Assembly: GCA_963843975.1 (NCBI GenBank)
Contig: CAWJMG010000003.1
Span: 810,001 to 842,000 of the forward strand
Source of the DNA: an uncultured Actinomycetes bacterium
Lineage (GTDB): Bacteria; Actinomycetota; Actinomycetes; S36-B12; CAIYMF01
Length of the DNA: 32,000 nt
Direction of reading: 5' to 3'
Part shown: piece by piece, positions 12,124-22,705 of the stretch
Layout: each line of letters starts with the position of its first letter
Position numbering within the stretch: position 1 is the stretch's first letter
Made by a program: the position numbers and the translations under genes
The notes under the pieces: generated by a model
Seen by the model: only the letters and a program-made list of their open reading frames with translations
Databases searched by the model: none
What the model was told of the DNA's origin: nothing

Positions 12124-12975
12124 CTAGCCGCCCGTCGGCTCGTCGGCCGCCGCTGCGTCGTCCCTCGGCGGTGCGTCCGCCGGTGGCGCGCCCTCCGGGG
12201 CCGGCCCGGAACCGGGCAGAACGGTTGCAGCCGCAGGGGCCGTGTGGGCACCCACGGATGCCGACGTCTTGCGACGCCGCGCACCGAGCAGCAGCGCGAC
12301 CGCGACCCCGAGCAGGATGACGCCGGCTCCCCCGATCACCAGCGCGGCCGGCCACGCTCGGTCGACCTCGAGCGTCACGGCGAGGTCGGCGTCCAGCGAC
12401 GGGGTCGCGTCCGCGCGCATGAGGACGACGGTCGAGCCCGCCGGGATCCGGGCCGTGAGCTCGGCCGGCGAGCCCTCGTCCTGCCGGAGCCAGAACTGCT
12501 GCGCCGACGGCGGCGGCGGCTGCTGCGTGCCGGGCACCGTCCGGGTCGTGGTGGAGCCTCCGGTCGACAGCTGGGCAACCACGTCGTACGGCGCACCTGC
12601 GAGATAGGTGTCGAGGTCGGATCCGTTCGCGACGCCGAGGAACAGCGGAGCGCCGTCGGCCGAGGTCGCCGAGAGGGTGAGCACGCCGACGCCGTCCGGC
12701 ACGGGCAGGCCGACAGCGTCGACCTGGAGGCCGTCCACGAGCAGCGCGACGCCGGCGGCACGGACTCGGGTGGGCTCGGTGGTGACGGTGCCGTCCGGCC
12801 CGAAGGCGAGGCCGACCACGATCCCGCCTGCGAGCAGGGAGCTGCCCAGGACGGCGGCCGCGACCCCCGACACCACGAATCCTGCACGCGACACGTCGTC
12901 ACGGTAACCCCGTGCGGGCGTGCGGCGCGGCCGCGCCACGGGTGCGCCCGCCTGCTCGGCCGACCGAGCGGGCAT
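12124..12975 (-). CDS. Hypothetical bitopic membrane protein (TM near each end, Pro/Ala-rich tail)
   Basis: High G/C third-position bias throughout. TM helices FVVSGVAAAVLGSSLLAGGIVVGLAF and AALVIGGAGVILLGVAVALLL. The start is uncertain: ATG 12975 or GTG 12894. Confidence 0.65.
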   Translation of the reverse strand: MPARSAEQAGAPVARPRRTPARGYRDDVSRAGFVVSGVAAAVLGSSLLAGGIVVGLAFGPDGTVTTEPTRVRAAGVALLVDGLQVDAVGLPVPDGVGVLTLSATSADGAPLFLGVANGSDLDTYLAGAPYDVVAQLSTGGSTTTRTVPGTQQPPPPSAQQFWLRQDEGSPAELTARIPAGSTVVLMRADATPSLDADLAVTLEVDRAWPAALVIGGAGVILLGVAVALLLGARRRKTSASVGAHTAPAAATVLPGSGPAPEGAPPADAPPRDDAAAADEPTGG

Positions 12976-12984
12976 GATCGGCAC

Positions 12985-13272
12985 GTGACCGCTGACCAGC
13001 CGCTGACCCTCGCGGCGCTCAAGCTGCGCTGGATCGACGTCCTCTACGACCTCGAGGCACGGCACCGCACGGCGTGGCTGGCCCTGTTCGACGGTCGGCT
13101 GGCCTCCCTCGACGGCGACGTCCTGGTGCTCGACTTCGTGGACGCGACCAAGATGGCCGGCGTGCACGGCTACGAGCGGGCAGCCAAGCCGACGTTCCTC
13201 GACGCGATGAGCGACTCGATCGAGCACGTCACCGGCCAACGCCTTCGCATCGTCACGACGCGCGACGTCTGA
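12985..13272 (+). CDS. Small conserved hypothetical protein (95 aa)
   Basis: GTG at 12985 within ORF 11632..13272. From that point third positions are nearly all G/C (VTADQPLTLAALKLRWIDVLYDLEARHRTAWLALFDG..). Confidence 0.6.
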   Translation: MTADQPLTLAALKLRWIDVLYDLEARHRTAWLALFDGRLASLDGDVLVLDFVDATKMAGVHGYERAAKPTFLDAMSDSIEHVTGQRLRIVTTRDV

Positions 13273-13370
13273 GGGCCCGGGAACCCGGTGCAGGAAAGTC
13301 CGACACCGAGGCAACCTCCGGGGCACCTGCATCCGTCTCTGCTTCGACGACGAGCAGAGCGGAGGCAGGG

Positions 13371-13877
13371 ATGACGACCGACCACGACGCGCAGTTCACG
13401 GCGTGGGTGGAGCGCACGGTCGGATCACTGCGCGGCACGGCGTACCTGATGTGCGGCGACTGGCATGCCGCGGACGACGTGGTGCAGGACGCGCTGGTGC
13501 GGGTGTACGAGCGCTGGCACCGCATCCGCCCGGATGCAGCGACGTCGTACGCACGTCGGGTGATCACGACAGCCACGATCGACCGCGCCCGGCGGCCGTG
13601 GCGGCGCGAGGTCTCCAGCGACGTCCTGCCCGAGCACGTCTCCCCGCGTGAGGACGAGACGCCGTACGACGTCGTCGGCGCCCTCGCACAGCTGCCCCCG
13701 CGCCAGCGCGCCGTGCTGGTCCTGCGGTTCTTCGACGACCTCGACGTGAACGAGACCGCACGTCTGCTCGGGATCACGCCCGGCACCGTGAAGAGCACGA
13801 CCTCGCGCGGGCTCGAGAGCCTGCGCGTCCTGATGCGAACGCCCGTGCACGCGGGCCTGTCCGAGGAGACACCATGA
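13371..13877 (+). CDS. ECF-type RNA polymerase sigma-70 family factor
   Basis: Region 2 AYLMCGDWHAADDVVQDALVRVYERW and region 4 LPPRQRAVLVLRFFDDLDVNETARLLGITPGTVKSTTSRGLESLR. The ATG at 13371 lies 5 nt after GGAGG. Confidence 0.9.
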   Translation: MTTDHDAQFTAWVERTVGSLRGTAYLMCGDWHAADDVVQDALVRVYERWHRIRPDAATSYARRVITTATIDRARRPWRREVSSDVLPEHVSPREDETPYDVVGALAQLPPRQRAVLVLRFFDDLDVNETARLLGITPGTVKSTTSRGLESLRVLMRTPVHAGLSEETP

Positions 13878-14461
13878 GCGAGAACGACATCCGCACCCTG
13901 ATGGGGACCGCGGCGGCCGACGCACCGGCCCGCGAGTTCAGCACGCCTGTCATCGCGTCGGCTGCCGCCGCACGCACCCGCCGCCGTCGCGCCTGGTACG
14001 GCGTCGGCGCCCTCGGTGCCGCTGCGGCGGTGACCGTCGTGGCCACTGTGTCCCTCGGTCTCCTGGGCAACGAGGGCACCAAGACACCGGTGGCCAGCGC
14101 GCCGACGTCGTCCGCACCCGTGGTCGACCCCGGCGGGATCTCGCTCCCGGTCAGTCTGCCGCTCGGCGAGCTCGTGGGCGTCGTCGACGGCGCGCTGCCG
14201 TCCGGGACGTCCGTCGCCGAGCTCCCGGTCGAGGCGGCGTTCACCCCCGACGGCGCGATCACGCTGCCCCTGACCACGGCCGGCGGCAGCGCCGAGCTCG
14301 CGATCACGGCGAGCGCTGCCGGCTGCACCGCCACGTCGGCGGGCCTGGACCAGACCACGCTGGATGCGATCTCGTCGGCGGTCTGCACCGCGGCGGCGGC
14401 CTACCCGAACCAGCCCGGCACCGTCCTGCCCGGCAGCGGCTCGATCGACCCCGCGTCCTGA
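13874..14461 (+). CDS. Single-pass membrane protein, putative cognate anti-sigma factor
   Basis: ATGA overlap with the sigma gene. Short cytoplasmic N-terminus, an RRRR anchor followed by TM WYGVGALGAAAAVTVVATVSLGLL, then an Ala/Ser/Thr-rich exported domain with 2 Cys. Confidence 0.6.
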   Translation: MSENDIRTLMGTAAADAPAREFSTPVIASAAAARTRRRRAWYGVGALGAAAAVTVVATVSLGLLGNEGTKTPVASAPTSSAPVVDPGGISLPVSLPLGELVGVVDGALPSGTSVAELPVEAAFTPDGAITLPLTTAGGSAELAITASAAGCTATSAGLDQTTLDAISSAVCTAAAAYPNQPGTVLPGSGSIDPAS

Positions 14462-14469
14462 TCGGGGCG

Positions 14470-14500
14470 GAGGGGCGGTGCGCACGTCGCACCGCCCCTC
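14470..14500 (+). terminator. Intrinsic terminator hairpin after the sigma/anti-sigma pair
   Basis: Perfect 13-bp stem GAGGGGCGGTGCG / CGCACCGCCCCTC with a 5-nt loop, 9 nt after the stop. Confidence 0.7.
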
Positions 14501-14620
14501 TGTCATGTCACGACTCGCGGAAGCAGCGGGAATCTGGACCAATCCGCCGACCGACCTGCTCCGAACGAGTGATGACTGCGCGTCGACCGGACGCGCGGCG
14601 GACTCACCCCGGAGTACCTC

Positions 14621-15931
14621 GTGACCTCCACCCCATCGCGGCGTCGTCGCCGCCTGCTCGCAGTGTCGGGCGCCGTCGCGGCGTCCTCGCTGGCCGTCGG
14701 CGCAGCCGTCGGCCTCGGCACGTCCACCGCCTCGAGCCACCGTGAGGCCCCGCTCATCGCGGGCACCCCCAAGCTCGACAACACCGACGTCTACGCGTTC
14801 GTGAGCCCCGACAAGCCCGACACCGCCACGATCGTGGCGAACTTCAACCCGTTCGAGGACCCGGCGGGCGGCCCGAACTTCTACTCGTTCGACCCGAAGG
14901 CGCGCTACTACATCAACATCGACACCAACGGGGACTCGGAAGCCGACATCATCTACAGCTGGCGGTTCAAGACCAAGGTCCGCAACCCCGGGACCTTCCT
15001 CTACAACACCGGCCCGGTGACCCGCCTCGGTGATGCAGACCTCAACGTGGTCCAGAACTACGACCTCGTCGAGTGGAAGCGCAACGGCGGCGCGCGGTTC
15101 CTCGCCAAGGGCCTCTACACCGCGCCGGCCAACGTCGGCACGGCGTCGATGCCCAACTACGCCGCCCTCCGCACGCAGGCGACGTACGCCCGCGGCGGCG
15201 TGACGACGTTCGCCGGCCAGGCCGACGACCCGTTCGCGCTCGACCTGCGCGTGTTCAACCTGCTCTACGGCGGCAACCTGAGCGAGGTCGGCAACGACTC
15301 GCTGAAGGGCTACAACGTCCAGACCGTCGCCATCCAGGTTCCGGTGTCCAAGCTCGGCGGCAAGAAGAACATCATCGGCGTCTGGTCCTCGACCAAGAAG
15401 GCCACGTCGAGGGGCTCCTACGTCCAGGTCTCGCGCCTCGGCATGCCGCTCGTCAACGAGGTCGTCATCCCGCTGAAGGACAAGGACAAGTTCAACGCGT
15501 CCAAGCCCTCCGGCGACGCGCAGTTCCTGAAGTACGTGACCAAGCCCGAGCTGCCGAAGCTGCTCAACGCGGTCTACGGCCTGCCCGTGCCCAAGGAGCC
15601 GCGCAACGACCTCGTGCAGGTGTTCCTGACCGGCGTCCCGGGGCTCAACCAGCCCAAGAACGTCAAGCCCTCCGAGATGCTGCGGCTCAACCTGACGCGG
15701 TTCTCGGGGCAGACGTACAACCGGCTCGGCGTGATCGGCGGCGACCTCAACGGCTTCCCGAACGGCCGTCGCCTCGCTGACGACATCCTCGACGCCTCGC
15801 TGCAGGTCGTCGCAGGCGAGCTCGTCGGCCACCCGAACGACCTGGGTGACGGCGTCGACGCCAACGACGTCCCGTTCATGGACACGTTCCCGTACGTCGC
15901 ACTCCCCCACAGCGGCTCCACCGTCCGCTGA
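14621..15931 (+). CDS. DUF4331 domain-containing exported protein (Tat-type signal)
   Basis: GTG at 14621, 6 nt after GGAG. Carries an SRRRRRLLAV twin-arginine signal and SHREAPLIAGTPKLDNTDVYAF.., the N-terminal signature I associate with DUF4331, then ..SRLGMPLVNEVVIP.., FPNGRRLADD. Confidence 0.88.
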   Translation: MTSTPSRRRRRLLAVSGAVAASSLAVGAAVGLGTSTASSHREAPLIAGTPKLDNTDVYAFVSPDKPDTATIVANFNPFEDPAGGPNFYSFDPKARYYINIDTNGDSEADIIYSWRFKTKVRNPGTFLYNTGPVTRLGDADLNVVQNYDLVEWKRNGGARFLAKGLYTAPANVGTASMPNYAALRTQATYARGGVTTFAGQADDPFALDLRVFNLLYGGNLSEVGNDSLKGYNVQTVAIQVPVSKLGGKKNIIGVWSSTKKATSRGSYVQVSRLGMPLVNEVVIPLKDKDKFNASKPSGDAQFLKYVTKPELPKLLNAVYGLPVPKEPRNDLVQVFLTGVPGLNQPKNVKPSEMLRLNLTRFSGQTYNRLGVIGGDLNGFPNGRRLADDILDASLQVVAGELVGHPNDLGDGVDANDVPFMDTFPYVALPHSGSTVR

Positions 15932-16003
15932 CCAGTGCGGGGCCCCGGCACAGCCGGGGCCCCGCACCGCACCCGTTCCGCACCAGTCTCCGGGAGACGC
16001 GCC

Positions 16004-17242
16004 GTGACCACCACAGACCTCCGCCCCGCTGCACCATCGGCGCAGCCGCGTCGCCGACGCGCCCGCGTGGCCCTCGTGCTCGTGGGCGCCGTCGCCGTCG
16101 CCGGCCTGGTCGGGGCGGGATCGCTGCTGCGCCCGACGACCGCGCCGGCGCAGCAGGCGCAGGAGCCGTCCGGCCCGACCACAACGGTCGAGGGCCTCGC
16201 CGCCTACCTGGAGTCGGTGCCCGATGATTGGCACGGCTGGTCGAGCCTCGGCGGCCTGCAGCTCGAGCGCGCGCGCTCGACGGGCTCGCCCGAGTGGTAC
16301 GGCCGGGCCGAGCAGTCGTTCCGCCGCTCGCTGCAGATCAGGCCCGACGGCAACCCGCCCGCACTGGCCGGGATCGCCGCCGTCGATGCGGCCAAGCACG
16401 ACTTCGTGGTCGCCGAGTCCGGCGCCCGCGCCGCCCTCGCAGTCAACCCGCTCGACGCGACAGCGCAGGCGATCCTCGTCGACGCGCTCACCGAGCTGGG
16501 GAGGTACGACGAGTCGCTCGCGGCCGCGCAGCGCCTCGACGATACGCACCCCGGGCTCTCGTCGTACACGCGGCTCGCGTACCAGGAGGAGCTGCGCGGC
16601 CATGTGGCGGAGGCGCTCTCGCTCCTCGCCCTCGCGGCCGACGATGCCGCCACCCCCTCGCAGGCCGCCTTCGCGCGCTACCAGGAGGGCCTGCTCGCGC
16701 TGCAGTCCGGCGACGTCGAGCGGGCCGAGCGGTCGTACGCCGCGGGAGCGGCCGTCGCACCGGACGACCTGACCCTGCTCCACCTCCGGGCCCGCATCGC
16801 GGTCGCCCAGGGCGATTCCGCTCTGGCCGCAGACCTCTTCCGCACGCTGGTGCAGCGGCGTCCGACAGCGGCGTTCGCGATCGAGGCCGCGCAGGTGATG
16901 ACCCGGTCGGGCGACCAGCGCGAGGCGTCCGACCTCGTCGCGCTCGCCCAGGCGCAGCTCGCCGTGAACCGCGCGAACGGCGTGGAGCCCGAGCCGTCCG
17001 ACGTCGTCCTCGAGGCCACGTACGGCGCCCCCGCGACCGCACTGCAGATGGCCGAGTCGCTGTGGTCGAGGCAGAAGGGCGTGTACGCCGCGGACGCCTA
17101 CGCGGTCGCGCTGCACGCCGTGGGCCGAGACGGCGAGGCTCTCCGCTTCGCCGACCGCGCCCTCGAGCTCGGGACGACGACGCCCTCGCTCAGCGAGCAC
17201 CGTGACGCGATCCGCGCCTCGCTCGCCGGCGGTGCCTCATGA
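16004..17242 (+). CDS. Membrane-anchored tetratricopeptide-repeat protein
   Basis: GTG at 16004 after GGGAGA. RRRR followed by TM VALVLVGAVAVAGLVGAG, then repeated Ala/Leu-rich helical pairs (TPR-like). Its stop overlaps the next start (ATGA). Confidence 0.75.
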   Translation: MTTTDLRPAAPSAQPRRRRARVALVLVGAVAVAGLVGAGSLLRPTTAPAQQAQEPSGPTTTVEGLAAYLESVPDDWHGWSSLGGLQLERARSTGSPEWYGRAEQSFRRSLQIRPDGNPPALAGIAAVDAAKHDFVVAESGARAALAVNPLDATAQAILVDALTELGRYDESLAAAQRLDDTHPGLSSYTRLAYQEELRGHVAEALSLLALAADDAATPSQAAFARYQEGLLALQSGDVERAERSYAAGAAVAPDDLTLLHLRARIAVAQGDSALAADLFRTLVQRRPTAAFAIEAAQVMTRSGDQREASDLVALAQAQLAVNRANGVEPEPSDVVLEATYGAPATALQMAESLWSRQKGVYAADAYAVALHAVGRDGEALRFADRALELGTTTPSLSEHRDAIRASLAGGAS

Positions 17243-18891
17243 GGTCGCGTCGGCTCGGCCTCGCGTCGCTGCTCGTCCCCGTGGTGGTCGTGCTCGCTGC
17301 CCCCACGGCGTCGGCGCACCCGCTCGGCAACCTGTCTGTCAACACCTACGACGGTGTCGTCGTCGCACCCGACGGCGTGCGGGTGGACCACGTGGAAGAC
17401 ATCGCCGAGGTGCCCTCGGTCGCCGCACTGCGGACGGCCGACACGGACGTCGACGGCACCACCTCGCCGGCGGAGCTGGGGGCCTGGGCCGGGAGCCGTT
17501 GCGCCGCAGCCGCTTCGCGGATCCGGGTGGCCGCCGACGGCACGCCCCTCGACCTCGGCGTCCGCACAGCCTCCGCCACGACAGCGCCCGGCCAGGCCGG
17601 TCTGGCCACGGTCCGCGTCGAGTGCGACCTCGGCGCCGACCTCCGCGTGGCGGCAGCCACCGCCGTCACAGTGGACGTCGCCCCTCCGACAGACCTGGGG
17701 TGGCGCGAGATCACGGTCGCGGGCGACGGCACCACTGTGGTGTCCGCGAACGTCCCGTCGGCCAGCGTGAGCGCGCGGCTGACGTCGTACCCCGGCGACC
17801 TCACGACGTCGCCGGACGAGCGGAGCGCAGCCGCAACGATCAAGCCCGGCGGGCCGCGCCTCGCCGTCGCGGCTGCTTCTGGACCGCTCGGTGTCGTCAC
17901 TCGAGGCGTCGACGGGGTGACCACCGCGGTCGAGGGCCTGGCCACCGCGTCGGGCCCGTTCGCGCTGGTGCTGCTCGTGCTCGGCGGCCTCGTGCTCGGC
18001 GCGATGCACGCGCTCGCCCCCGGGCACGGCAAGACGGTCGTGGCGATGGCTGCGCTCGCGGGCCAGGGCGCTCGACGCCGTGAGCTCGCACGGGCCGCCG
18101 CGACCCTCGGCGCGAGCATCACGCTCGCGCACACCGGGAGCGTCGTGCTGGTCGGCGTCGCTCTCACCGCGCTCGGGGCCGTCGTGCCCGCGGCGCTGTT
18201 CCCCGCGCTCGCGGTCGTGGCAGGCGGGATCGTCGTGGCGGTCGGCATCGGCCTGCTGCGCGGTCGCGGCGGCGCCCACGTGCACGGCCCCGGCGGCCAC
18301 ACCCACGGCGACCACGACCACGACCACCACGACCACCACGGCGAGGCTCACGATCACGGGAGTCACCACGGCCACGACGCCCCCGCACCGCCCTCCCCTG
18401 CGCGGAGGCAGGAGGCCGCGCTCTCGGCCACGGCAGTCCTGGACGACACCGGCACCGAGCCCGTCGTGACCGCGCACGTGCACGACCACGCGCACGACCA
18501 CGACCACGACCACGACCACGCGCACGCGCACGCGCATGGCGACCACCCGGAGCACGACACGGGCACCCGGCGTCGCACGCTCGTGGCCCTCGGCGCGGTC
18601 GGCGGTCTCACGCCGAGCCCGACGGCGCTCGTCGTCCTGCTCGGCACCCTCGCCGTGGGGCGGCCCCTGGCGGGCCTGCTCGCGGTCCTCGCCTTCGGGA
18701 TCGGCATGGCCCTGACGCTCGTCGGGGCCGGGCTGCTGGCCGTGGTGCTCGGCCGACGCGCGGCGGACCTCGCGGTCGCGCGCGGGCTGCCGCTCCGGTG
18801 GCTGGCGCTGGTGCCGCGGCTCGCGGGCGCGGCGGTCGTCTGCGCCGGCGTGTTCCTCGCGCTCCGCGGCGTCCTCGACCTCGTCGGCTGA
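17239..18891 (+). CDS. NicO/RcnA-like nickel/cobalt-type permease fused to an N-terminal exported domain, with two His-rich loops
   Basis: Signal peptide ..AAPTASA/HPLGNLSVNTY. Permease signature GAMHALAPGHGKT. His-rich loops HVHGPGGHTHGDHDHDHHDHHGEAHDHGSHHGHD and HVHDHAHDHDHDHDHAHAHAHGDHPEHD. C-terminal TM bundle. Confidence 0.85.
   Translation: MRSRRLGLASLLVPVVVVLAAPTASAHPLGNLSVNTYDGVVVAPDGVRVDHVEDIAEVPSVAALRTADTDVDGTTSPAELGAWAGSRCAAAASRIRVAADGTPLDLGVRTASATTAPGQAGLATVRVECDLGADLRVAAATAVTVDVAPPTDLGWREITVAGDGTTVVSANVPSASVSARLTSYPGDLTTSPDERSAAATIKPGGPRLAVAAASGPLGVVTRGVDGVTTAVEGLATASGPFALVLLVLGGLVLGAMHALAPGHGKTVVAMAALAGQGARRRELARAAATLGASITLAHTGSVVLVGVALTALGAVVPAALFPALAVVAGGIVVAVGIGLLRGRGGAHVHGPGGHTHGDHDHDHHDHHGEAHDHGSHHGHDAPAPPSPARRQEAALSATAVLDDTGTEPVVTAHVHDHAHDHDHDHDHAHAHAHGDHPEHDTGTRRRTLVALGAVGGLTPSPTALVVLLGTLAVGRPLAGLLAVLAFGIGMALTLVGAGLLAVVLGRRAADLAVARGLPLRWLALVPRLAGAAVVCAGVFLALRGVLDLVG
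18277..18379 (+). repeat. His/Asp-coding CAC/GAC-rich repeat block 1 inside the permease gene
   Basis: Runs of cacgac / caccac / cacggc units encoding the first His-rich loop. Confidence 0.6.
18475..18558 (+). repeat. Hexanucleotide microsatellite-like block 2, (CACGAC)n/(CACGCG)n
   Basis: cacgaccacgcgcacgaccacgaccacgaccacgaccacgcgcacgcgcacgcgcat encodes (HD)n(HA)n. Confidence 0.65.
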
Positions 18892-18897
18892 GTCGCC

Positions 18898-19749
18898 TCA
18901 AGCGAGCCGCAGCACCATGAGGTTGTCGCGTGCGTCCTTGCGGTCGTCCGCGACCGCGATCAGGCCGCCGCCCAGGAAGGCGAGGCCCTCAGGCTTCGCC
19001 ACCTTCTTCGGCAGCGGCATCGCGGAGGTCGCGGCGACGGAGCCACCGGGCACCAGCGGGAGTACCAGCTGCGCGAGGCAACGACCCTGGTCCGACAGCA
19101 CCCATACGCCGCCCTCGTGGTCGGGCGCGAGGTCGCTGAGGTCGGATAGATCGTCGGTGCCGTCGCCGTCCCACGGCCACCACGCCAGGGCCACCAGGCC
19201 GTCCTCGTCCAGGGGCGGCGCCCAGCCTTCGTCGTGAGGCGGGAGGTTTGCGGCCGAGACGCCTTGCGGCAGAGCATCTCTCGGGCCGAACTCCACCAGG
19301 CCGGCGGGCTTCTTCTCCTTCGCCACCAGCACGTGGCCATCGCGGAGCAGGAGGACTCCCTCCCCTCGCGAAGCGCCCTGCTTCGACCAGCTGGCGTGCA
19401 GGTCTGCGACGGTGCTCGTGTCGAGGGTGAACCGCGACAAGATGCGCCGCGTAGCGAGGTCGACCCCGCCGACCATCGACGTCCCCTCGGTCAGCACCCA
19501 GACTCGGCCGGCACCGTCGAGCGCCAGCGCCTCGAGCTGCGTGGCGCGCTCCTCGTACCCGGGCCGGGCTCCCACGTCGTCGGCGGTCACCACCTCGAAC
19601 TCGCCGGGCACGCCGTCGACGACCGTGGTGATGGCGAACGCCACGCGGTCGTCGCCGAGTGCGAGCAGCAGGACTCCGGCGTCGGTGCGACGAGCGGTCA
19701 GCCCCGACACCTCGGGCAGGGGCACCGAATGGGTGGCGATCCGCTCCAT
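18898..19749 (-). CDS. Hypothetical protein (no family assigned from sequence alone; somewhat lower third-position G/C than neighbours)
   Basis: ATG at 19749 (MERIATHSVPLPEVSG..). Long uninterrupted ORF with repeated beta-strand-like segments. Convergent with the permease gene. Confidence 0.65.
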   Translation of the reverse strand: MERIATHSVPLPEVSGLTARRTDAGVLLLALGDDRVAFAITTVVDGVPGEFEVVTADDVGARPGYEERATQLEALALDGAGRVWVLTEGTSMVGGVDLATRRILSRFTLDTSTVADLHASWSKQGASRGEGVLLLRDGHVLVAKEKKPAGLVEFGPRDALPQGVSAANLPPHDEGWAPPLDEDGLVALAWWPWDGDGTDDLSDLSDLAPDHEGGVWVLSDQGRCLAQLVLPLVPGGSVAATSAMPLPKKVAKPEGLAFLGGGLIAVADDRKDARDNLMVLRLA

Positions 19750-21978: not shown

Positions 21979-22172
21979 GTCACTCGTCGCCTGGGTCGGA
22001 CGGCGCCTTGGAGGGCGCCAGCTCGTCCGGCTCCTCGATGAGCGAGGCGGCCAGGAGGTCGAGGTCCTCAGGGTCAGGAACCGGCATGGCATCCCCTGTC
22101 GCAGGGTCGGACGTCCCGTGAGGATTCTGCGCAGAAGTCGCGACGACCGCTACCCCTCGTCGGGGCGGACGT

Positions 22173-22370
22173 CTTGGGTCGGGACGTCGGGCCAGCGTGA
22201 GGGACGCCGCTCGGATCCTTGGGCTGACAGGATCCGTCGCAGTGGGGCGCCAGGGAGCGACAGGGCGGCGCCTTGGGTCGGGACGTCGGGCCAGCGTGAG
22301 GGACGCCGCTCGGATCCCTGGGCTGACAGGATCCGTCGCAGCGGGGCGCCAGGGAGCGACAGGTGGCGCC
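22173..22370. repeat. Tandem direct repeat, two copies of about 99 bp, each ending in a 13-nt copy of the tRNA-Pro 3' end
   Basis: Copies 22173-22271 and 22272-22370 differ at only a few positions. Each contains GGATCC..GGGCTGACAGGATCC followed by GTCGCAG.GGGGCGCCAGGGAGCGACAGG. Confidence 0.85.
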
Positions 22371-22390
22371 ATCGGCGCGGGGGTCGGGCC

Positions 22391-22491
22391 GGGCGCGAAG
22401 GACTCCTCCCAGATCAGAGGGAGCCCGACACAACGACAGAGGGACGACCTGACGGCCGTCCCTCTGTCGTTCTGTCGGGCTGACAGGATCC
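22391..22491. repeat. Paralogous copy of the tRNA-Pro downstream module (conserved flank + long hairpin + tRNA 3'-end fragment)
   Basis: GGGCGCGAAGGACTCCTC..AGAGGGAGCCCGACA-hairpin-CTGTCGGGCTGACAGGAT matches 22549-22646. The hairpin core sequence differs but remains self-complementary. Confidence 0.75.
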
Positions 22492-22580
22492 GTCGCAGAG
22501 TGGCGCCAGGGAGCGACGGGGCGGCGCCTGCGGCGCGGGGGTCGAGGCGGGCGCGAAGGACTCCTCACAAATCCAGAGGG

Positions 22581-22631
22581 AGCCCGACAGACGACGAAGG
22601 CCGGCCGCAAGCGGCCGGCCTTCGTCGTCTG

Positions 22632-22638
<7 letters not shown>
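22581..22638 (-). terminator. Long GC-rich hairpin immediately 3' of tRNA-Pro, incorporating its last 7 nt
   Basis: AGCCCGACAGACGACGAAGGCCGGCCGC-AA-GCGGCCGGCCTTCGTCGTCTGTCGGGCT. Confidence 0.6.

Positions 22639-22705
<67 letters not shown>

What the first reader, a model, noticed from the sequence alone, without database searches (positions are those of the whole stretch)
13371..18891. ECF sigma/anti-sigma pair next to a DUF4331, TPR and His-rich NicO-like permease trio: an uncharacterised envelope metal-handling module
Five co-directional genes make up this cluster.
- An ECF sigma overlaps (ATGA) a single-pass membrane protein with no recognisable zinc anti-sigma motif.
- A perfect 13-bp hairpin follows that pair.
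- Three tightly packed genes come next (the last two coupled by ATGA): a Tat-exported DUF4331 protein, a membrane-anchored TPR protein, and a 550-aa protein.
- The 550-aa protein has an exported N-terminal domain of roughly 230 aa joined to a NicO/RcnA-type permease (HALAPGHGKT) with two long His/Asp loops.

DUF4331 has no established function that I know of. The trio plus a dedicated sigma looks like a regulated extracytoplasmic capture-and-transport system for Ni/Co/Cu-type metals. I cannot name a characterised member.
Basis: partly seen in the sequence, partly recalled or inferred. Interest (0 to 1): 0.7.

Follow-up and report, generated by a model that had tools for sequence, protein, structure and literature searches.

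The report
Conserved DUF4331–TPR–permease metal-handling operon
Three neighbouring genes (a secreted protein of unknown function, a membrane-anchored adaptor, and a metal channel with its own external metal-catching domain) recur together from actinobacteria to cyanobacteria and proteobacteria and probably handle copper- or nickel-type metals at the cell surface, but their promoter matches a SigK-type sigma factor, not the sigma factor encoded next door.

Summary
The five genes, both ATGA overlaps and the 13-bp hairpin are real.

The trio DUF4331 / TPR / 550-aa permease is a true conserved unit. It is complete in 68 of 71 actinobacterial loci with enough flank. It recurs in Nostoc, and in beta-, gamma- and alpha-proteobacteria with the NicO-type permease replaced by HupE/UreJ-2.

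The permease's exported domain starts with an invariant His directly after the signal peptide. Its model best matches the Cu-bound 'anglerase' Ang-1 domain (PDB 9GCE, 2025).

DUF4331's mature end is an invariant Ser-Ser-His, an ATCUN-like motif.

The adjacent sigma/anti-sigma pair is not the conserved partner. It is present only in Longivirga-level relatives, is followed by a terminator-like hairpin, and is unrelated to SigK.

The trio has its own promoter-like motif, CAATCC-N15-CCGAAC. This matches the published M. tuberculosis SigK consensus CCATCC-N15-CCGAAT. It is conserved upstream of DUF4331 in about 60-75 of 86 loci. In 53 of 69 loci a bona fide SigK/RskA pair lies next to the trio.

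Verdict:
- The metal-handling trio is supported.
- A 'dedicated adjacent sigma' is not supported.
- The SigK link and the NicO-type anglerase-like fusion appear undescribed.
- Metal identity and transport direction remain inferred.

The parts
13311..13338 (+). Promoter-like motif GCAACC-N17-CGTCT upstream of the sigma gene. It is probably the sigma operon's own ECF-type promoter.
   Evidence: Both hexamers are conserved between the window and Longivirga while the flanks diverge (A4). The pattern occurs 3 times in the window against 1.04 expected. The promoter function is inferred.
13371..13877 (+). ECF sigma factor of the SigE-family (TIGR02983). It is not SigK-type.
   Evidence: Pfam Sigma70_r2/r4 hits and TIGR02983 at 161.6 bits, above the 141.55 cutoff. 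No similarity to Streptomyces SigK (E = 0.19).
13874..14461 (+). Single-pass membrane protein translationally coupled to the sigma (ATGA). It is a possible anti-sigma factor without a ZAS or RskA domain.
   Evidence: ATGA overlap. No Pfam family. No similarity to RskA. The anti-sigma role is inferred from position only.
14466..14504 (+). GC-rich stem-loop with a perfect 13-bp core (14470-14482 / 14488-14500). It is a likely factor-independent terminator of the sigma operon.
   Evidence: Sequence and RNA fold, where it is part of a -91 kcal/mol region with z = -4.25. It has no T-tract, so the simple terminator scan does not flag it.
14539..14566 (+). SigK-type promoter-like motif CCAATCC-N15-CCGAAC (-35-like 14539-14545; -10-like 14561-14566).
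   Evidence: It is the only strong PWM hit in the 32 kb window, at 27.1 bits. The motif is conserved in the same position in most related loci. It matches the published M. tuberculosis SigK consensus CCATCC-N15-CCGAAT (supplement of PMC4821874).
14576..14598 (+). 9-bp stem-loop at the predicted 5' end of the operon mRNA.
   Evidence: Fold. It is conserved in Longivirga and L084, with a compensatory G-C to A-U change in L084 (A5). Its function is unknown.
14621..15931 (+). DUF4331 protein (436 aa), exported. Its predicted mature N-terminus is Ser-Ser-His-Arg-Glu-Ala-Pro. It has a DxNGDxxxD loop and lacks the C-terminal membrane anchor seen in many homologues.
   Evidence: PF14224 at 503.8 bits. 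A37-S38-S39-H40-R41-E42 are invariant in 73 sequences. The ASSHREAP motif is identical in gamma-proteobacteria. Model pLDDT 78, pTM 0.82, with residues 1-42 disordered.
15935..15967 (+). Intercistronic perfect 15-bp hairpin directly after the DUF4331 stop codon.
   Evidence: A hairpin of -25 kcal/mol or stronger follows the DUF4331 stop in 85% of 80 loci, against 0% of intragenic control windows.
16005..17242 (+). Membrane-anchored TPR protein with an extracytoplasmic TPR domain (412 aa from GTG 16005; the longest ORF starts at 15935).
   Evidence: TPR_16, TPR_2 and other TPR Pfam hits. N-terminal RRRRAR followed by a hydrophobic span. Homologous to the TPR partners in Adhaeribacter (E = 1e-19), Nostoc (E = 7e-10) and Lichenicola (E = 3e-4).
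17239..18891 (+). 550-aa fusion protein. It comprises a signal peptide (residues 1-26), a His1 beta-sandwich domain (residues 27 to about 210), and a NicO-type permease core (about 240-550).
17317..17955 (+). Exported anglerase-like domain beginning with invariant His27 (ASA|HPLGN). Conserved Asp54 and Glu57 are candidate co-ligands.
   Evidence: A26, H27, P28, G30, D54 and E57 are invariant in 74 sequences. pLDDT is above 90. The top Foldseek PDB hit is 9gce, the Cu-bound Ang-1 domain (E = 1.1e-3, prob 1.00, TM 0.47). The same HPLGNF start is found in Nostoc.
18274..18549 (+). His/Asp-rich disordered loop (residues 346-437, two clusters). It is predicted cytoplasmic.
   Evidence: pLDDT below 50 with no helix. 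Its only PDB sequence similarity is compositional, to the ZnT7 His-rich loop. The topology is inferred from three membrane helices lying between the external domain and the loop.

Best explanation
The conserved functional unit is a three-gene operon, 14539-18891, with its own promoter. It is not a five-gene module.

**Proposed components**
- An exported DUF4331 protein whose flexible mature N-terminus (Ser-Ser-His) can chelate Cu(II)/Ni(II)-type ions. The hairpin after its stop codon suggests it is made in excess of the other two proteins.
- A membrane-anchored extracytoplasmic TPR adaptor.
- A permease whose external beta-sandwich domain begins with the N-terminal histidine exposed by signal-peptide cleavage. 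This resembles an anglerase-type mono-histidine brace. The domain is tethered to a NicO-type six-helix core with invariant membrane histidines and a cytoplasmic His/Asp loop.

**Proposed working model**
Metal is captured outside the membrane by DUF4331 and/or the His1 domain, with the TPR protein holding the partners together. It is then passed through the permease. Uptake is favoured but not shown.

**Regulation**
Transcription starts at a SigK-type (ECF18/19) promoter and depends on a SigK/RskA pair encoded elsewhere in this genome. The neighbouring SigE-family sigma and its membrane partner form a separate transcription unit ending at the 14470-14500 hairpin.

**Shown**
- Gene identities and the co-conservation of the trio.
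- The swap of permease family across phyla.
- The promoter motif and its match to the SigK consensus.
- SigK/RskA adjacency in other genera.
- The invariant N-terminal His motifs.
- The fold resemblance to Ang-1.

**Inferred**
- Signal-peptide cleavage sites.
- Metal binding, metal identity and transport direction.
- The role of the TPR protein.
- The presence of SigK in this genome.
For: **Trio conservation**
- 68 of 71 actinobacterial loci with at least 4.5 kb downstream have DUF4331, TPR and the N-domain/NicO gene in order.
- Relatives at 72-74% identity keep the trio in unrelated contexts.

**Cross-phylum recurrence**
- Nostoc pNPUN01 has DUF4331-TPR-'ADA|HPLGNF...HALSPGHGKT'. Its permease is 33% identical over 358 aa, E = 2e-56.
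- Marinobacter, Pseudoalteromonas, Lichenicola and a Comamonadaceae plasmid have DUF4331, then a TPR-like protein, then a HupE_UreJ_2 permease. An N-terminal extension beginning with signal peptide + His was checked directly in the first three.
- This is non-orthologous replacement of the permease core, keeping the His1 domain architecture.

**Metal link**
- NicO hits in 71 of 74 orthologues; H257, H263 and H298 are invariant.
- The N-domain's best PDB match is Cu-bound Ang-1, 9gce.
- Ang-1 and Ang-2 bind Cu with Kd of about 60-75 nM, and Ang-1 binds Ni, via a His1 brace (PMC12537917).
- DUF4331's 'A|SSHREAP' is invariant from actinobacteria to gamma-proteobacteria, and Nostoc has 'A|SDH'.

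**Regulation**
- The motif ATCC-N15-YCGAA occurs in 59 of 86 upstream regions, against a background of 0.008 per 250 nt. CCGTAT variants add more.
- It is a unique hit per locus.
- The published SigK consensus is CCATCC-N15-CCGAAT.
- A divergent SigK (NF007228, 292 bits, cutoff 226) plus RskA (RskA_N/RskA_C) sits next to the trio in Streptomyces. In 27 of 53 loci it has its own CCCATCC-N15-GCGAAT motif.
- 53 of 69 loci have SigK+RskA adjacent.
- Pseudoalteromonas has a SigK-like sigma (31% identical, E = 1e-36) plus an RskA_C anti-sigma, then a terminator, then TGCATCC-N16-CGTAT, then DUF4331.
- The window motif is conserved among the window, Longivirga, L084 and L082 while the flanks diverge.
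Against: - No experiment supports any step. No metal-responsive regulator site or riboswitch was found.
- DUF4331 has only one invariant His but many invariant Asp/Asn/Arg residues, which would suit a Ca-binding protein or an enzyme as well as a Cu/Ni binder.
- Its fold has no solved relative.
- The resemblance to Ang-1 is fold-level only. Foldseek E = 1.1e-3 and TM 0.47. hhalign probability against Ang-1-like domains is 2.5%. There is no sequence hit.
- NicO/RcnA relatives include exporters, so the direction is open.
- SigK/RskA was not found in the 32 kb window or in 21 kb of Longivirga. Its presence in this genome is assumed.
- The 80 genome loci are mostly Streptomyces and are not phylogenetically independent.
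- Some DUF4331 genes lack the permease (L019, L007) or sit beside type II secretion genes instead.
Confidence: 0.55

Rival explanations
1. The adjacent ECF sigma and its membrane partner are the dedicated regulators, and all five genes form one regulated module.
For: - The pair is adjacent and on the same strand, and it is conserved in Longivirga at 88% DUF4331 identity.
- A sigma, anti-sigma, DUF4331 order also occurs in Pseudoalteromonas.
Against: - The Pseudoalteromonas pair is SigK/RskA-type, and the window pair is not.
- No homologue of the window pair lies near DUF4331 in 80 other genomes, nor in relatives at 72-74% identity.
- A strong hairpin separates the units.
- The sigma's own conserved upstream motif, GCAACC-N17-CGTCT, differs from the trio's CAATCC-N15-CCGAAC.
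Confidence: 0.15
2. An efflux or protection system. The NicO/RcnA-type permease exports excess Ni, Co or Cu from the cytoplasm, collected by the cytoplasmic His/Asp loop. DUF4331 and the His1 domain buffer or remove the metal outside. The system is induced by envelope metal stress via an ECF sigma with an extracytoplasmic sensor.
For: - The best NCBIfam match is the RcnA-type 'nickel/cobalt efflux transporter' subfamily.
- The His-rich loop is predicted cytoplasmic.
- From my own knowledge, not tested here: ECF/anti-sigma control with a periplasmic sensor is typical of the CnrYXH Ni/Co resistance system.
Against: - The RcnA model score is far below its cutoff (56 bits against 195).
- A tethered external His1 capture domain facing the channel was interpreted as an uptake device in the only characterised analogues (PMC12537917).
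- HupE/UreJ permeases, which replace NicO in proteobacterial versions, are described there as nickel permeases for assimilation.
Confidence: 0.2
3. A metallation or maturation pathway. DUF4331 is an extracytoplasmic metalloenzyme or metalloprotein. The permease supplies its metal across the membrane, and the TPR protein is its assembly chaperone.
For: - DUF4331 has about 100 invariant positions, including many charged residues, which looks like an active site.
- The TPR protein has weak similarity to the CcmH/CycH apocytochrome chaperone TPR domain (22-28 bits).
- The DUF4331-TPR pair is more constant than the permease.
- The Tat-like signal here would fit export of a folded protein.
Against: - No catalytic family or fold relative was found.
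- The Tat motif is not conserved.
- The conserved hairpin implies DUF4331 is made in excess of its supposed maturation factors, which is compatible with this model but not predicted by it.
Confidence: 0.15
4. The system is not metal-related. The permease is a LysE/TauE/DsbD-superfamily exporter of a small molecule or of reducing equivalents, and the trio serves envelope maintenance under SigK control.
For: - Public annotations of the orthologues are inconsistent: 'sulfite exporter TauE/SafE', 'UreH domain', 'nickel transporter'.
- DsbD_2 scores about as well as NicO on this protein (24.6 against 21.0 bits).
- The M. tuberculosis SigK regulon includes the DsbD-like DipZ (my own knowledge) and fasciclin proteins (PMC7509140).
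Against: - The protein has no cysteine pair in its membrane helices (sequence).
- It has the invariant H-x5-H-G-K and H-T motifs, long His/Asp clusters, and an invariant His1.
- It is replaced by the HupE/UreJ-2 metal permease in other phyla.
Confidence: 0.07

Closest known systems
Anglerase-permease fusions (Ang-1 / Ang-2 domains on HupE/UreJ-2; Franco Cairo et al. 2025, PMC12537917; PDB 9GCE)
   Same: - Signal peptide followed directly by an invariant His.
- Beta-sandwich external domain with a helical insertion after the second strand.
- Flexible linker to a multi-helix metal permease.
- A conserved acidic residue about 28-31 positions after His1 (Ang-2 uses His1/Asp33).
- 9GCE is the best structural match.
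   Different: - The permease core is NicO-type, not HupE/UreJ-2.
- There is no significant sequence or profile similarity to Ang-1-like domains.
- The paper does not mention the long His/Asp cytoplasmic loop, the obligatory DUF4331 and TPR partners, or ECF control.
- Metal binding is untested here.
NicO / RcnA family Ni/Co permeases (Pfam PF03824; E. coli RcnA)
   Same: - H-A-x-x-P-G-H-G-K motif.
- Six-helix core.
- Central His-rich loop.
- Orthologues pass NicO.
   Different: - This protein itself is below both curated cutoffs.
- It carries an extra exported domain of about 210 aa.
- It is embedded in a DUF4331-TPR operon.
- Transport direction is unknown.
SigK/RskA (ECF18/19) regulon of Mycobacterium tuberculosis
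   Same: - The promoter motif matches CCATCC-N15-CCGAAT in sequence and spacing.
- SigK/RskA pairs flank the trio in Streptomyces, Actinomadura and Pseudoalteromonas.
- One Streptomyces plasmid places a fasciclin (MPT70/83-like) gene, with the same motif, next to the trio.
   Different: - The known regulon (mpt70, mpt83, the sigK locus) contains no DUF4331 trio as far as the accessible literature shows.
- The activating signal of SigK is stated to be unknown (PMC7509140).
- No SigK/RskA is present in this window.
CnrYXH-type ECF control of metal transport, and YcnI/CopC-type His-brace copper proteins (named from my own knowledge, not tested here)
   Same: - An ECF sigma with an extracytoplasmic sensor controls a metal transporter.
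- An N-terminal-His copper site sits on a small exported beta-sandwich next to a membrane transporter.
   Different: The protein families are different. No sequence relationship was found or sought beyond Pfam/NCBIfam.

Membership tests
DUF4331 (PF14224) | Full-length match to the Pfam profile above the gathering score | tested here: met
   503.8 bits against a cutoff of 27, covering profile positions 1-421 of 421.
NicO (PF03824) | Score at or above the Pfam gathering threshold | tested here: not met
   The window protein scores 21.0 bits against 27.7. However, 71 of 74 aligned orthologues match at E <= 0.05, with the best at 4.4e-12.
NicO / RcnA | Signature H-A-x-x-P-G-H-G-K after the first membrane helix, and a central His-rich loop | tested here: met
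   HALAPGHGKT is at residues 257-266. H257, P261, G262, H263, G264 and K265 are invariant. The loop spans residues 346-437. Treating this motif as the family signature rests on my own knowledge.
RcnA-type efflux subfamily (NCBIfam NF007454) | Score at or above the curated cutoff | tested here: not met
   56.2 bits against 195.
Anglerase (Ang-1/Ang-2) | Histidine as the first residue after signal-peptide cleavage, strictly conserved | tested here: met
   A26 and H27 are invariant in 74 sequences, with small residues at -1 and -3. The same is seen in Nostoc. The cleavage site is predicted, not measured.
Anglerase (Ang-1/Ang-2) | Ig-like beta-sandwich fold related to 9GCE | tested here: inconclusive
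Anglerase (Ang-1/Ang-2) | Fusion to a HupE/UreJ-2 (PF13795) permease | tested here: not met
   The C-terminal core is NicO/DsbD_2-like. All ten shorter homologues of the N-domain that were tested are NicO fragments or have no hit, and none carries HupE_UreJ_2.
Anglerase (Ang-1/Ang-2) | Cu(II)/Ni(II) binding by a mono-histidine brace | not testable with these tools
   Requires purified protein with a native N-terminus (thermal shift, EPR, crystallography, as in PMC12537917).
SigK/RskA (ECF18/19) unit | Sigma matches the SigK model, and the anti-sigma has RskA_N/RskA_C domains | tested here: not met
   The window sigma is TIGR02983, and SigK is not among its top families. BLASTP against Streptomyces SigK gives E = 0.19. 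The partner has no Pfam hit and no similarity to RskA.
SigK regulon target | Promoter CCATCC-N15-CCGAAT upstream of the gene | tested here: met
   CAATCC-N15-CCGAAC at 14540-14566 matches 5 of 6 bases in each hexamer with exact spacing. It is conserved in relatives. Its activity is untested.
ATCUN motif (NH2-X-X-His) | Free N-terminus, His at position 3, no Pro at position 2 | tested here: inconclusive
   With cleavage after invariant A37, the mature end is S-S-H, or S-D-H in Nostoc. Cleavage after S39 would instead give an N-terminal His. The site was not measured.
Zinc-binding (ZAS) class I anti-sigma factor | HxxxCxxC motif in an N-terminal cytoplasmic domain of about 80-90 aa | tested here: not met
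   The cytoplasmic part is about 40 aa with no His or Cys. There is no zf-HC2 hit.
Tat substrate | Twin-arginine motif conserved in the family | tested here: not met
   SRRRRRLL is present here and in Longivirga. Streptomyces homologues have GRKG or GRRS, and gamma-proteobacterial ones have plain Sec signals.

The most novel reading that the evidence does not exclude
The DUF4331 / TPR / His1-domain-permease operon is the ancestral core output of SigK/RskA-type ECF signalling, shared by actinobacteria and proteobacteria. If so, the long-unknown signal of SigK/RskA is the availability or excess of a Cu/Ni-type metal at the cell surface. DUF4331, with more than 8000 homologues and no literature, would be a new class of secreted protein that binds metal through its processed N-terminus and hands it to a tethered anglerase-like receptor on interchangeable permeases (NicO or HupE/UreJ-2).
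Probability: 0.3. Interest if true: 0.8.

Novelty: new variant of a known kind. Interest (0 to 1): 0.62.

Why it matters
**DUF4331.** It is a large family. More than 8000 homologues scored in one search, and no paper in a library of about 8 million mentions it. Here it acquires a defined context: a fixed TPR partner, a metal permease with a His1 capture domain, and a SigK-type promoter.

**Anglerases.** The finding extends the 2025 anglerase concept to a second permease family. It also adds two obligatory partners that the original description did not note.

**SigK/RskA.** It offers a concrete, testable hypothesis for what SigK/RskA responds to. The signal is stated to be unknown in M. tuberculosis (PMC7509140). 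SigK also feeds into sigC (PMC4821874), which I recall being linked to copper acquisition.

**Annotation.** These permeases are currently named inconsistently as nickel transporter, sulfite exporter TauE/SafE, or UreH-domain protein. Also, proximity of an ECF sigma gene is not a safe basis for assigning its regulon.

Tried and rejected
**Literature**
- Searches for DUF4331 and PF14224 found nothing.
- Veyrier 2008 is not held, and the ECF-reclassification paper has no supplement text held.
- The search 'SigK' + 'CCGAAT' and the search for RskA with metal terms gave only noise.

**Sequence searches against solved structures**
- No real relatives were found for DUF4331, the permease, their profiles, or the N-domain alone. 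The only matches were compositional, to His-rich loops.

**RNA and signal scans**
- Rfam at a permissive E-value over 12500-19500 gave no riboswitch or leader.
- The sigma-70 promoter and T-tract terminator scans gave nothing, as expected for this GC content.

**Fold searches**
- Foldseek of the DUF4331 model against the PDB gave no hit with E <= 1e-3 and no TM above 0.15.

**Neighbourhood searches with the window sigma pair**
- tblastn of the window sigma and its partner against 80 DUF4331 loci found nothing.

**Testing whether the N-domain is Ang-2 or occurs on HupE/UreJ-2**
- The word-indexed search returned only fragments.
- The exhaustive search found 1876 clusters, but the listed hits are NicO fusions.
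- hhalign against three Ang-1-like domains gave 2.5% probability.
- So homology to Ang domains is not established.

**Alternative readings considered**
- A thiol-reductant (DsbD/CcmH-like) pathway was considered because of the weak DsbD_2 and TPR_CcmH_CycH hits. It was rejected because there is no membrane cysteine pair.
- The GGGAACC...GTCCGA sequence at about 13279 was considered as a SigM-type promoter. It was rejected because the spacing is 12 rather than 17 and it is not conserved in Longivirga.

Full report
**1. What is in the window**

The region 13371-18891 holds five + strand genes in a 72% GC actinobacterial sequence. The closest named relative is Longivirga aurantiaca, with 88% identity for DUF4331 and identical synteny.

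- **Gene 1, 13371-13877.** An ECF sigma of the TIGR02983 'SigE family' (161.6 bits, cutoff 141.55).
- **Gene 2, 13874-14461.** It overlaps gene 1 by ATGA. It encodes a 195-aa single-pass membrane protein with a cytoplasmic end of about 40 aa. It has no Pfam family and no His/Cys motif.
- **Stem-loop.** A perfect 13-bp inverted repeat, 14470-14482 / 14488-14500, follows gene 2. It extends to 17 pairs on folding.
- **Gene 3, 14621-15931.** A full-length DUF4331 (E = 6e-151).
- **Gene 4.** A TPR protein with an N-terminal membrane anchor.
- **Gene 5, 17239-18891.** It overlaps gene 4 by ATGA. It encodes 550 aa with HALAPGHGKT at residues 257-266.

- The TPR gene probably starts at GTG 16005, giving 412 aa as in Longivirga. 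This leaves a 73-nt spacer that contains a perfect 15-bp hairpin, 15935-15967.
- The two His/Asp clusters belong to one disordered loop, residues 346-437.
- The NicO and RcnA-type model scores of this protein are below their curated cutoffs.

**2. The trio is a conserved unit; the sigma pair is not part of it**

A profile-guided scan of one genome per species returned 80 DUF4331 loci, mostly Streptomyces, Actinomadura and Nocardioides.
- tblastn with the window proteins shows DUF4331, TPR, N-domain and NicO core in that order in 68 of the 71 loci with at least 4.5 kb of downstream sequence. Two more have DUF4331-TPR only.
- None of the 80 loci has a homologue of the window's sigma or its partner within 8 kb.
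- Metagenomic relatives at 72-74% identity keep the trio in quite different neighbourhoods without any sigma gene.
- Only Longivirga shares the five-gene arrangement.

**3. The trio crosses phyla and the permease family is swapped**

tblastn of DUF4331 against 72,556 plasmids found 41 records in Actinomycetota, Pseudomonadota, Bacteroidota and Cyanobacteriota. The alignments almost always start at His40. Annotated neighbourhoods were as follows.

| Source | Arrangement |
|---|---|
| Nostoc punctiforme pNPUN01 | DUF4331, TPR, 488-aa protein starting 'ADA\|HPLGNFTINHY' and containing 'HALSPGHGKT' plus a His-rich loop. It is a direct homologue of the window permease (E = 2e-56). |
| Streptomyces anulatus plasmid | DUF4331, TPR, 'nickel transporter' |
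| Marinobacter, Lichenicola, a Comamonadaceae plasmid | DUF4331, (small ORF), TPR-like protein, HupE/UreJ protein |
| Pseudoalteromonas | ECF sigma, RskA_C anti-sigma, terminator, DUF4331, Ig-like protein, TPR, HupE_UreJ_2 |
| Adhaeribacter, Miltoncostaea | DUF4331-TPR only; the former lies next to TonB-dependent receptors |
| Two Rhodobacterales plasmids | DUF4331 beside type II secretion genes |

- The three proteobacterial HupE/UreJ-2 proteins whose sequences I read (Marinobacter, Pseudoalteromonas, Lichenicola) have an N-terminal extension of about 180 aa that begins with signal peptide + His: 'KA|HQLS', 'WA|HKSS', 'DA|HSAS'.
- The TPR partners are mutually homologous across phyla. For example, window against Adhaeribacter gives E = 1e-19, and against Nostoc E = 7e-10.
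- A fixed DUF4331-TPR pair is therefore joined to either of two unrelated metal-permease families, each carrying an exported His1 domain. This is strong comparative evidence for a shared function centred on a metal.

**4. The exported domain of the permease**

- In an alignment of 74 orthologues, A26, H27, P28, G30, D54 and E57 are invariant. H257, P261-K265 and H298 are invariant in the membrane core.
- The AlphaFold model (pLDDT 75) gives a confident beta-sandwich for residues 34-203, with helices inserted after the second strand. Membrane helices follow, and residues 346-437 are disordered.
[quoted passage not shown] Weaker similarity to the Zn-binding PA4063 follows.
- The source paper (PMC12537917) describes 'anglerases'. 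These are beta-sandwich domains that start with the His exposed by signal-peptide cleavage. They bind Cu(II) with Kd of about 60-75 nM, and Ang-1 binds Ni at 220 nM, through a mono-histidine brace (His1 plus Asn41 or Asp33). They are tethered to HupE/UreJ-2 permeases and are proposed to swing between an open, metal-fishing state and a closed, channel-facing state.
- That paper does not mention NicO, TPR, sigma factors or DUF4331.
- Sequence-level homology between the window domain and Ang domains could not be shown. I therefore call the domain anglerase-like, not a member of Ang-1 or Ang-2.
- The domain family is large: 1876 clusters at 50% identity. In the listed hits it is fused to NicO.

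**5. DUF4331**

- The family profile begins exactly at Ser38.
- 'A-S-S-H-R-E-A-P' is invariant in 73 actinobacterial sequences and identical in Pseudoalteromonas and Marinobacter. The 25%-identical Nostoc protein has 'A-S-D-H'.
- Small residues at -3 and -1 favour cleavage after the Ala. This gives a mature N-terminus X-X-His, the pattern of the amino-terminal Cu(II)/Ni(II) (ATCUN) site. That reading is established chemistry applied by inference.
- Cleavage two residues later would instead give an N-terminal His.
- The first 42 residues are disordered in the model (pLDDT 78, pTM 0.82), which suits a flexible chelating tail.
- The rest of the protein is a beta-rich body plus helices. It has no solved relative.
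- It has only this one invariant His but many invariant Asp/Asn/Arg residues and a DxNGDxxxD loop. An additional ligand-binding or catalytic function cannot be excluded.
- Many homologues end in a low-complexity linker, a hydrophobic helix and RRR, which forms a C-terminal membrane anchor. The window protein lacks this.

**6. Regulation**

*The motif.* Upstream of DUF4331, about 55-80 nt before the start codon here, lies GGACCAATCC-N15-CCGAAC (14536-14566).
- A weight matrix built from related loci finds this as the only strong site in the 32 kb window (27.1 bits). It typically finds one site per 17-kb locus, always in front of DUF4331.
- A relaxed pattern occurs in 59 of 86 upstream regions, against 0.008 expected per 250 nt. 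About a dozen more carry the variant CCGTAT.
- The element is conserved between the window, Longivirga, L084 and L082 while the sequence upstream of it is not.

*The SigK link.*
- It matches the M. tuberculosis SigK consensus CCATCC-N15-CCGAAT, including the spacing (supplementary table of PMC4821874).
- In Streptomyces the gene pair transcribed divergently from the same intergenic region is a bona fide SigK (NF007228, 292.5 bits, cutoff 226) and an RskA anti-sigma (RskA_N, RskA_C).
- In at least 27 of 53 such loci, sigK has CCCATCC-N15-GCGAAT in its own orientation, as expected for an autoregulated ECF.
- SigK+RskA lie next to the trio in 53 of 69 loci with enough flank. They are divergent in Streptomyces and downstream on the same strand in Actinomadura.
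- The Pseudoalteromonas sigma is 31% identical to Streptomyces SigK (E = 1e-36). Its partner has RskA_C. The DUF4331 gene there is preceded by TGCATCC-N16-CGTAT.

*The window's own sigma.*
- It has no detectable similarity to SigK, and its partner has none to RskA.
- Its own upstream region carries a different motif conserved with Longivirga, GCAACC-N17-CGTCT.
- I conclude that the trio is a SigK-type regulon member and that the adjacent sigma operon is a separate unit. SigK itself was not seen in the window, so its presence in this genome is assumed.

**7. Operon anatomy**

- Two of the three long perfect hairpins with short loops that I found in the window bracket the DUF4331 gene.
- A hairpin of -25 kcal/mol or stronger directly after the DUF4331 stop is present in 85% of 80 loci, although its sequence differs between genera. 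No intragenic control window reaches that value.
- This fits partial termination or 3'-end stabilisation that makes DUF4331 more abundant than the two membrane proteins. That is the usual relation between a soluble binding protein and its membrane partners. This reading is inference.
- A 9-bp stem-loop at the predicted 5' end of the mRNA, 14576-14598, is conserved with one compensatory change.

**8. Mechanism and rivals**

*Best reading (0.55 as a whole).* This is an extracytoplasmic Cu/Ni-type metal relay. DUF4331 and the tethered His1 domain capture the ion, the TPR protein scaffolds them, and the NicO-type core moves the ion across the membrane. The operon is transcribed by SigK-type holoenzyme.

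Sub-claims by my estimate:

| Sub-claim | Estimate |
|---|---|
| The trio handles a transition metal | about 0.75 |
| SigK-type promoter | about 0.75 |
| Direction is uptake | about 0.45 |
| The metal is Cu or Ni rather than Co/Zn | about 0.5 |

*Rivals.*

| Rival | Estimate |
|---|---|
| Efflux/protection system of the RcnA/Cnr kind | 0.2 |
| Maturation pathway for a DUF4331 metalloenzyme | 0.15 |
| Non-metal exporter | 0.07 |

Nothing here is experimental.

**9. Novelty and score**

- The individual pieces belong to known kinds: ECF-controlled envelope systems, NicO permeases, and anglerase-type capture domains.
- The following appear new relative to the accessible literature:
  - the NicO-type anglerase-like fusion;
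  - the obligatory DUF4331 and TPR partners;
  - the cross-phylum permease swap;
  - the assignment of this operon to SigK/RskA.
- This gives a concrete handle on two unknowns: the function of DUF4331 and the signal of SigK.
- I rate it a new variant of a known kind, with interest 0.62.

Noticed in passing
window 15935-15967; loci L001-L085: A strong GC hairpin sits immediately after the DUF4331 stop codon. It is conserved as a structure but not as a sequence in 85% of 80 loci. This suggests differential expression within the operon.
   Followed up: partly
window 14576-14598: A 9-bp stem-loop lies at the predicted 5' end of the DUF4331 mRNA. It is conserved in Longivirga and L084, with a compensatory G-C to A-U change. 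No Rfam match was found.
   Followed up: partly
L096 10005-10882 (Streptomyces anulatus plasmid NZ_CP109253.1): A fasciclin-domain gene lies just downstream of the trio. It belongs to the same family as the SigK-regulated MPT70/MPT83 of M. tuberculosis. It has its own ACCAATCC-N15-CCGAAT motif about 220 nt upstream. No fasciclin homologue was found in the other loci or in the window.
   Followed up: partly
L088 and L092 (Sulfitobacter and Paracoccus plasmids): Here DUF4331 sits next to a type II secretion gene cluster and an A24 prepilin peptidase, with no TPR or permease gene. This hints that DUF4331 is released outside the cell in some proteobacteria.
   Followed up: no
alignment A1, e.g. 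P0027, P0057, P0104: Most Streptomyces-type DUF4331 proteins carry a C-terminal low-complexity linker with an L-x-G-G motif, a hydrophobic helix and RRR, which looks like a membrane anchor. The window and Longivirga proteins end right after the domain.
   Followed up: no
L066, L068, L072, L075 (Streptomyces), upstream of DUF4331: A subset of trio loci lacks both the adjacent SigK/RskA pair and the SigK-type motif. They share a different conserved upstream sequence (GAGACCGAACAAGAC...GCGCACGTA). They may be paralogous operons under another regulator.
   Followed up: no
window 22164-22705: Two overlapping tandem-repeat arrays (99 nt x 2.1 and 157 nt x 2.1) and a perfect 28-nt inverted repeat (22581-22638) abut a tRNA-Pro(GGG) gene at 22631-22705 on the - strand. 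This may be a remnant of an integration site.
   Followed up: partly
L089 (Adhaeribacter swui plasmid): An 806-aa DUF4331 protein and its TPR partner lie divergent from two TonB-dependent receptor genes, with no permease gene adjacent.
   Followed up: no
names given by sources: Orthologues of the 550-aa protein are annotated inconsistently in public records. Names include nickel transporter, HoxN/HupN/NixA family, sulfite exporter TauE/SafE, and urease accessory UreH domain protein.
   Followed up: no
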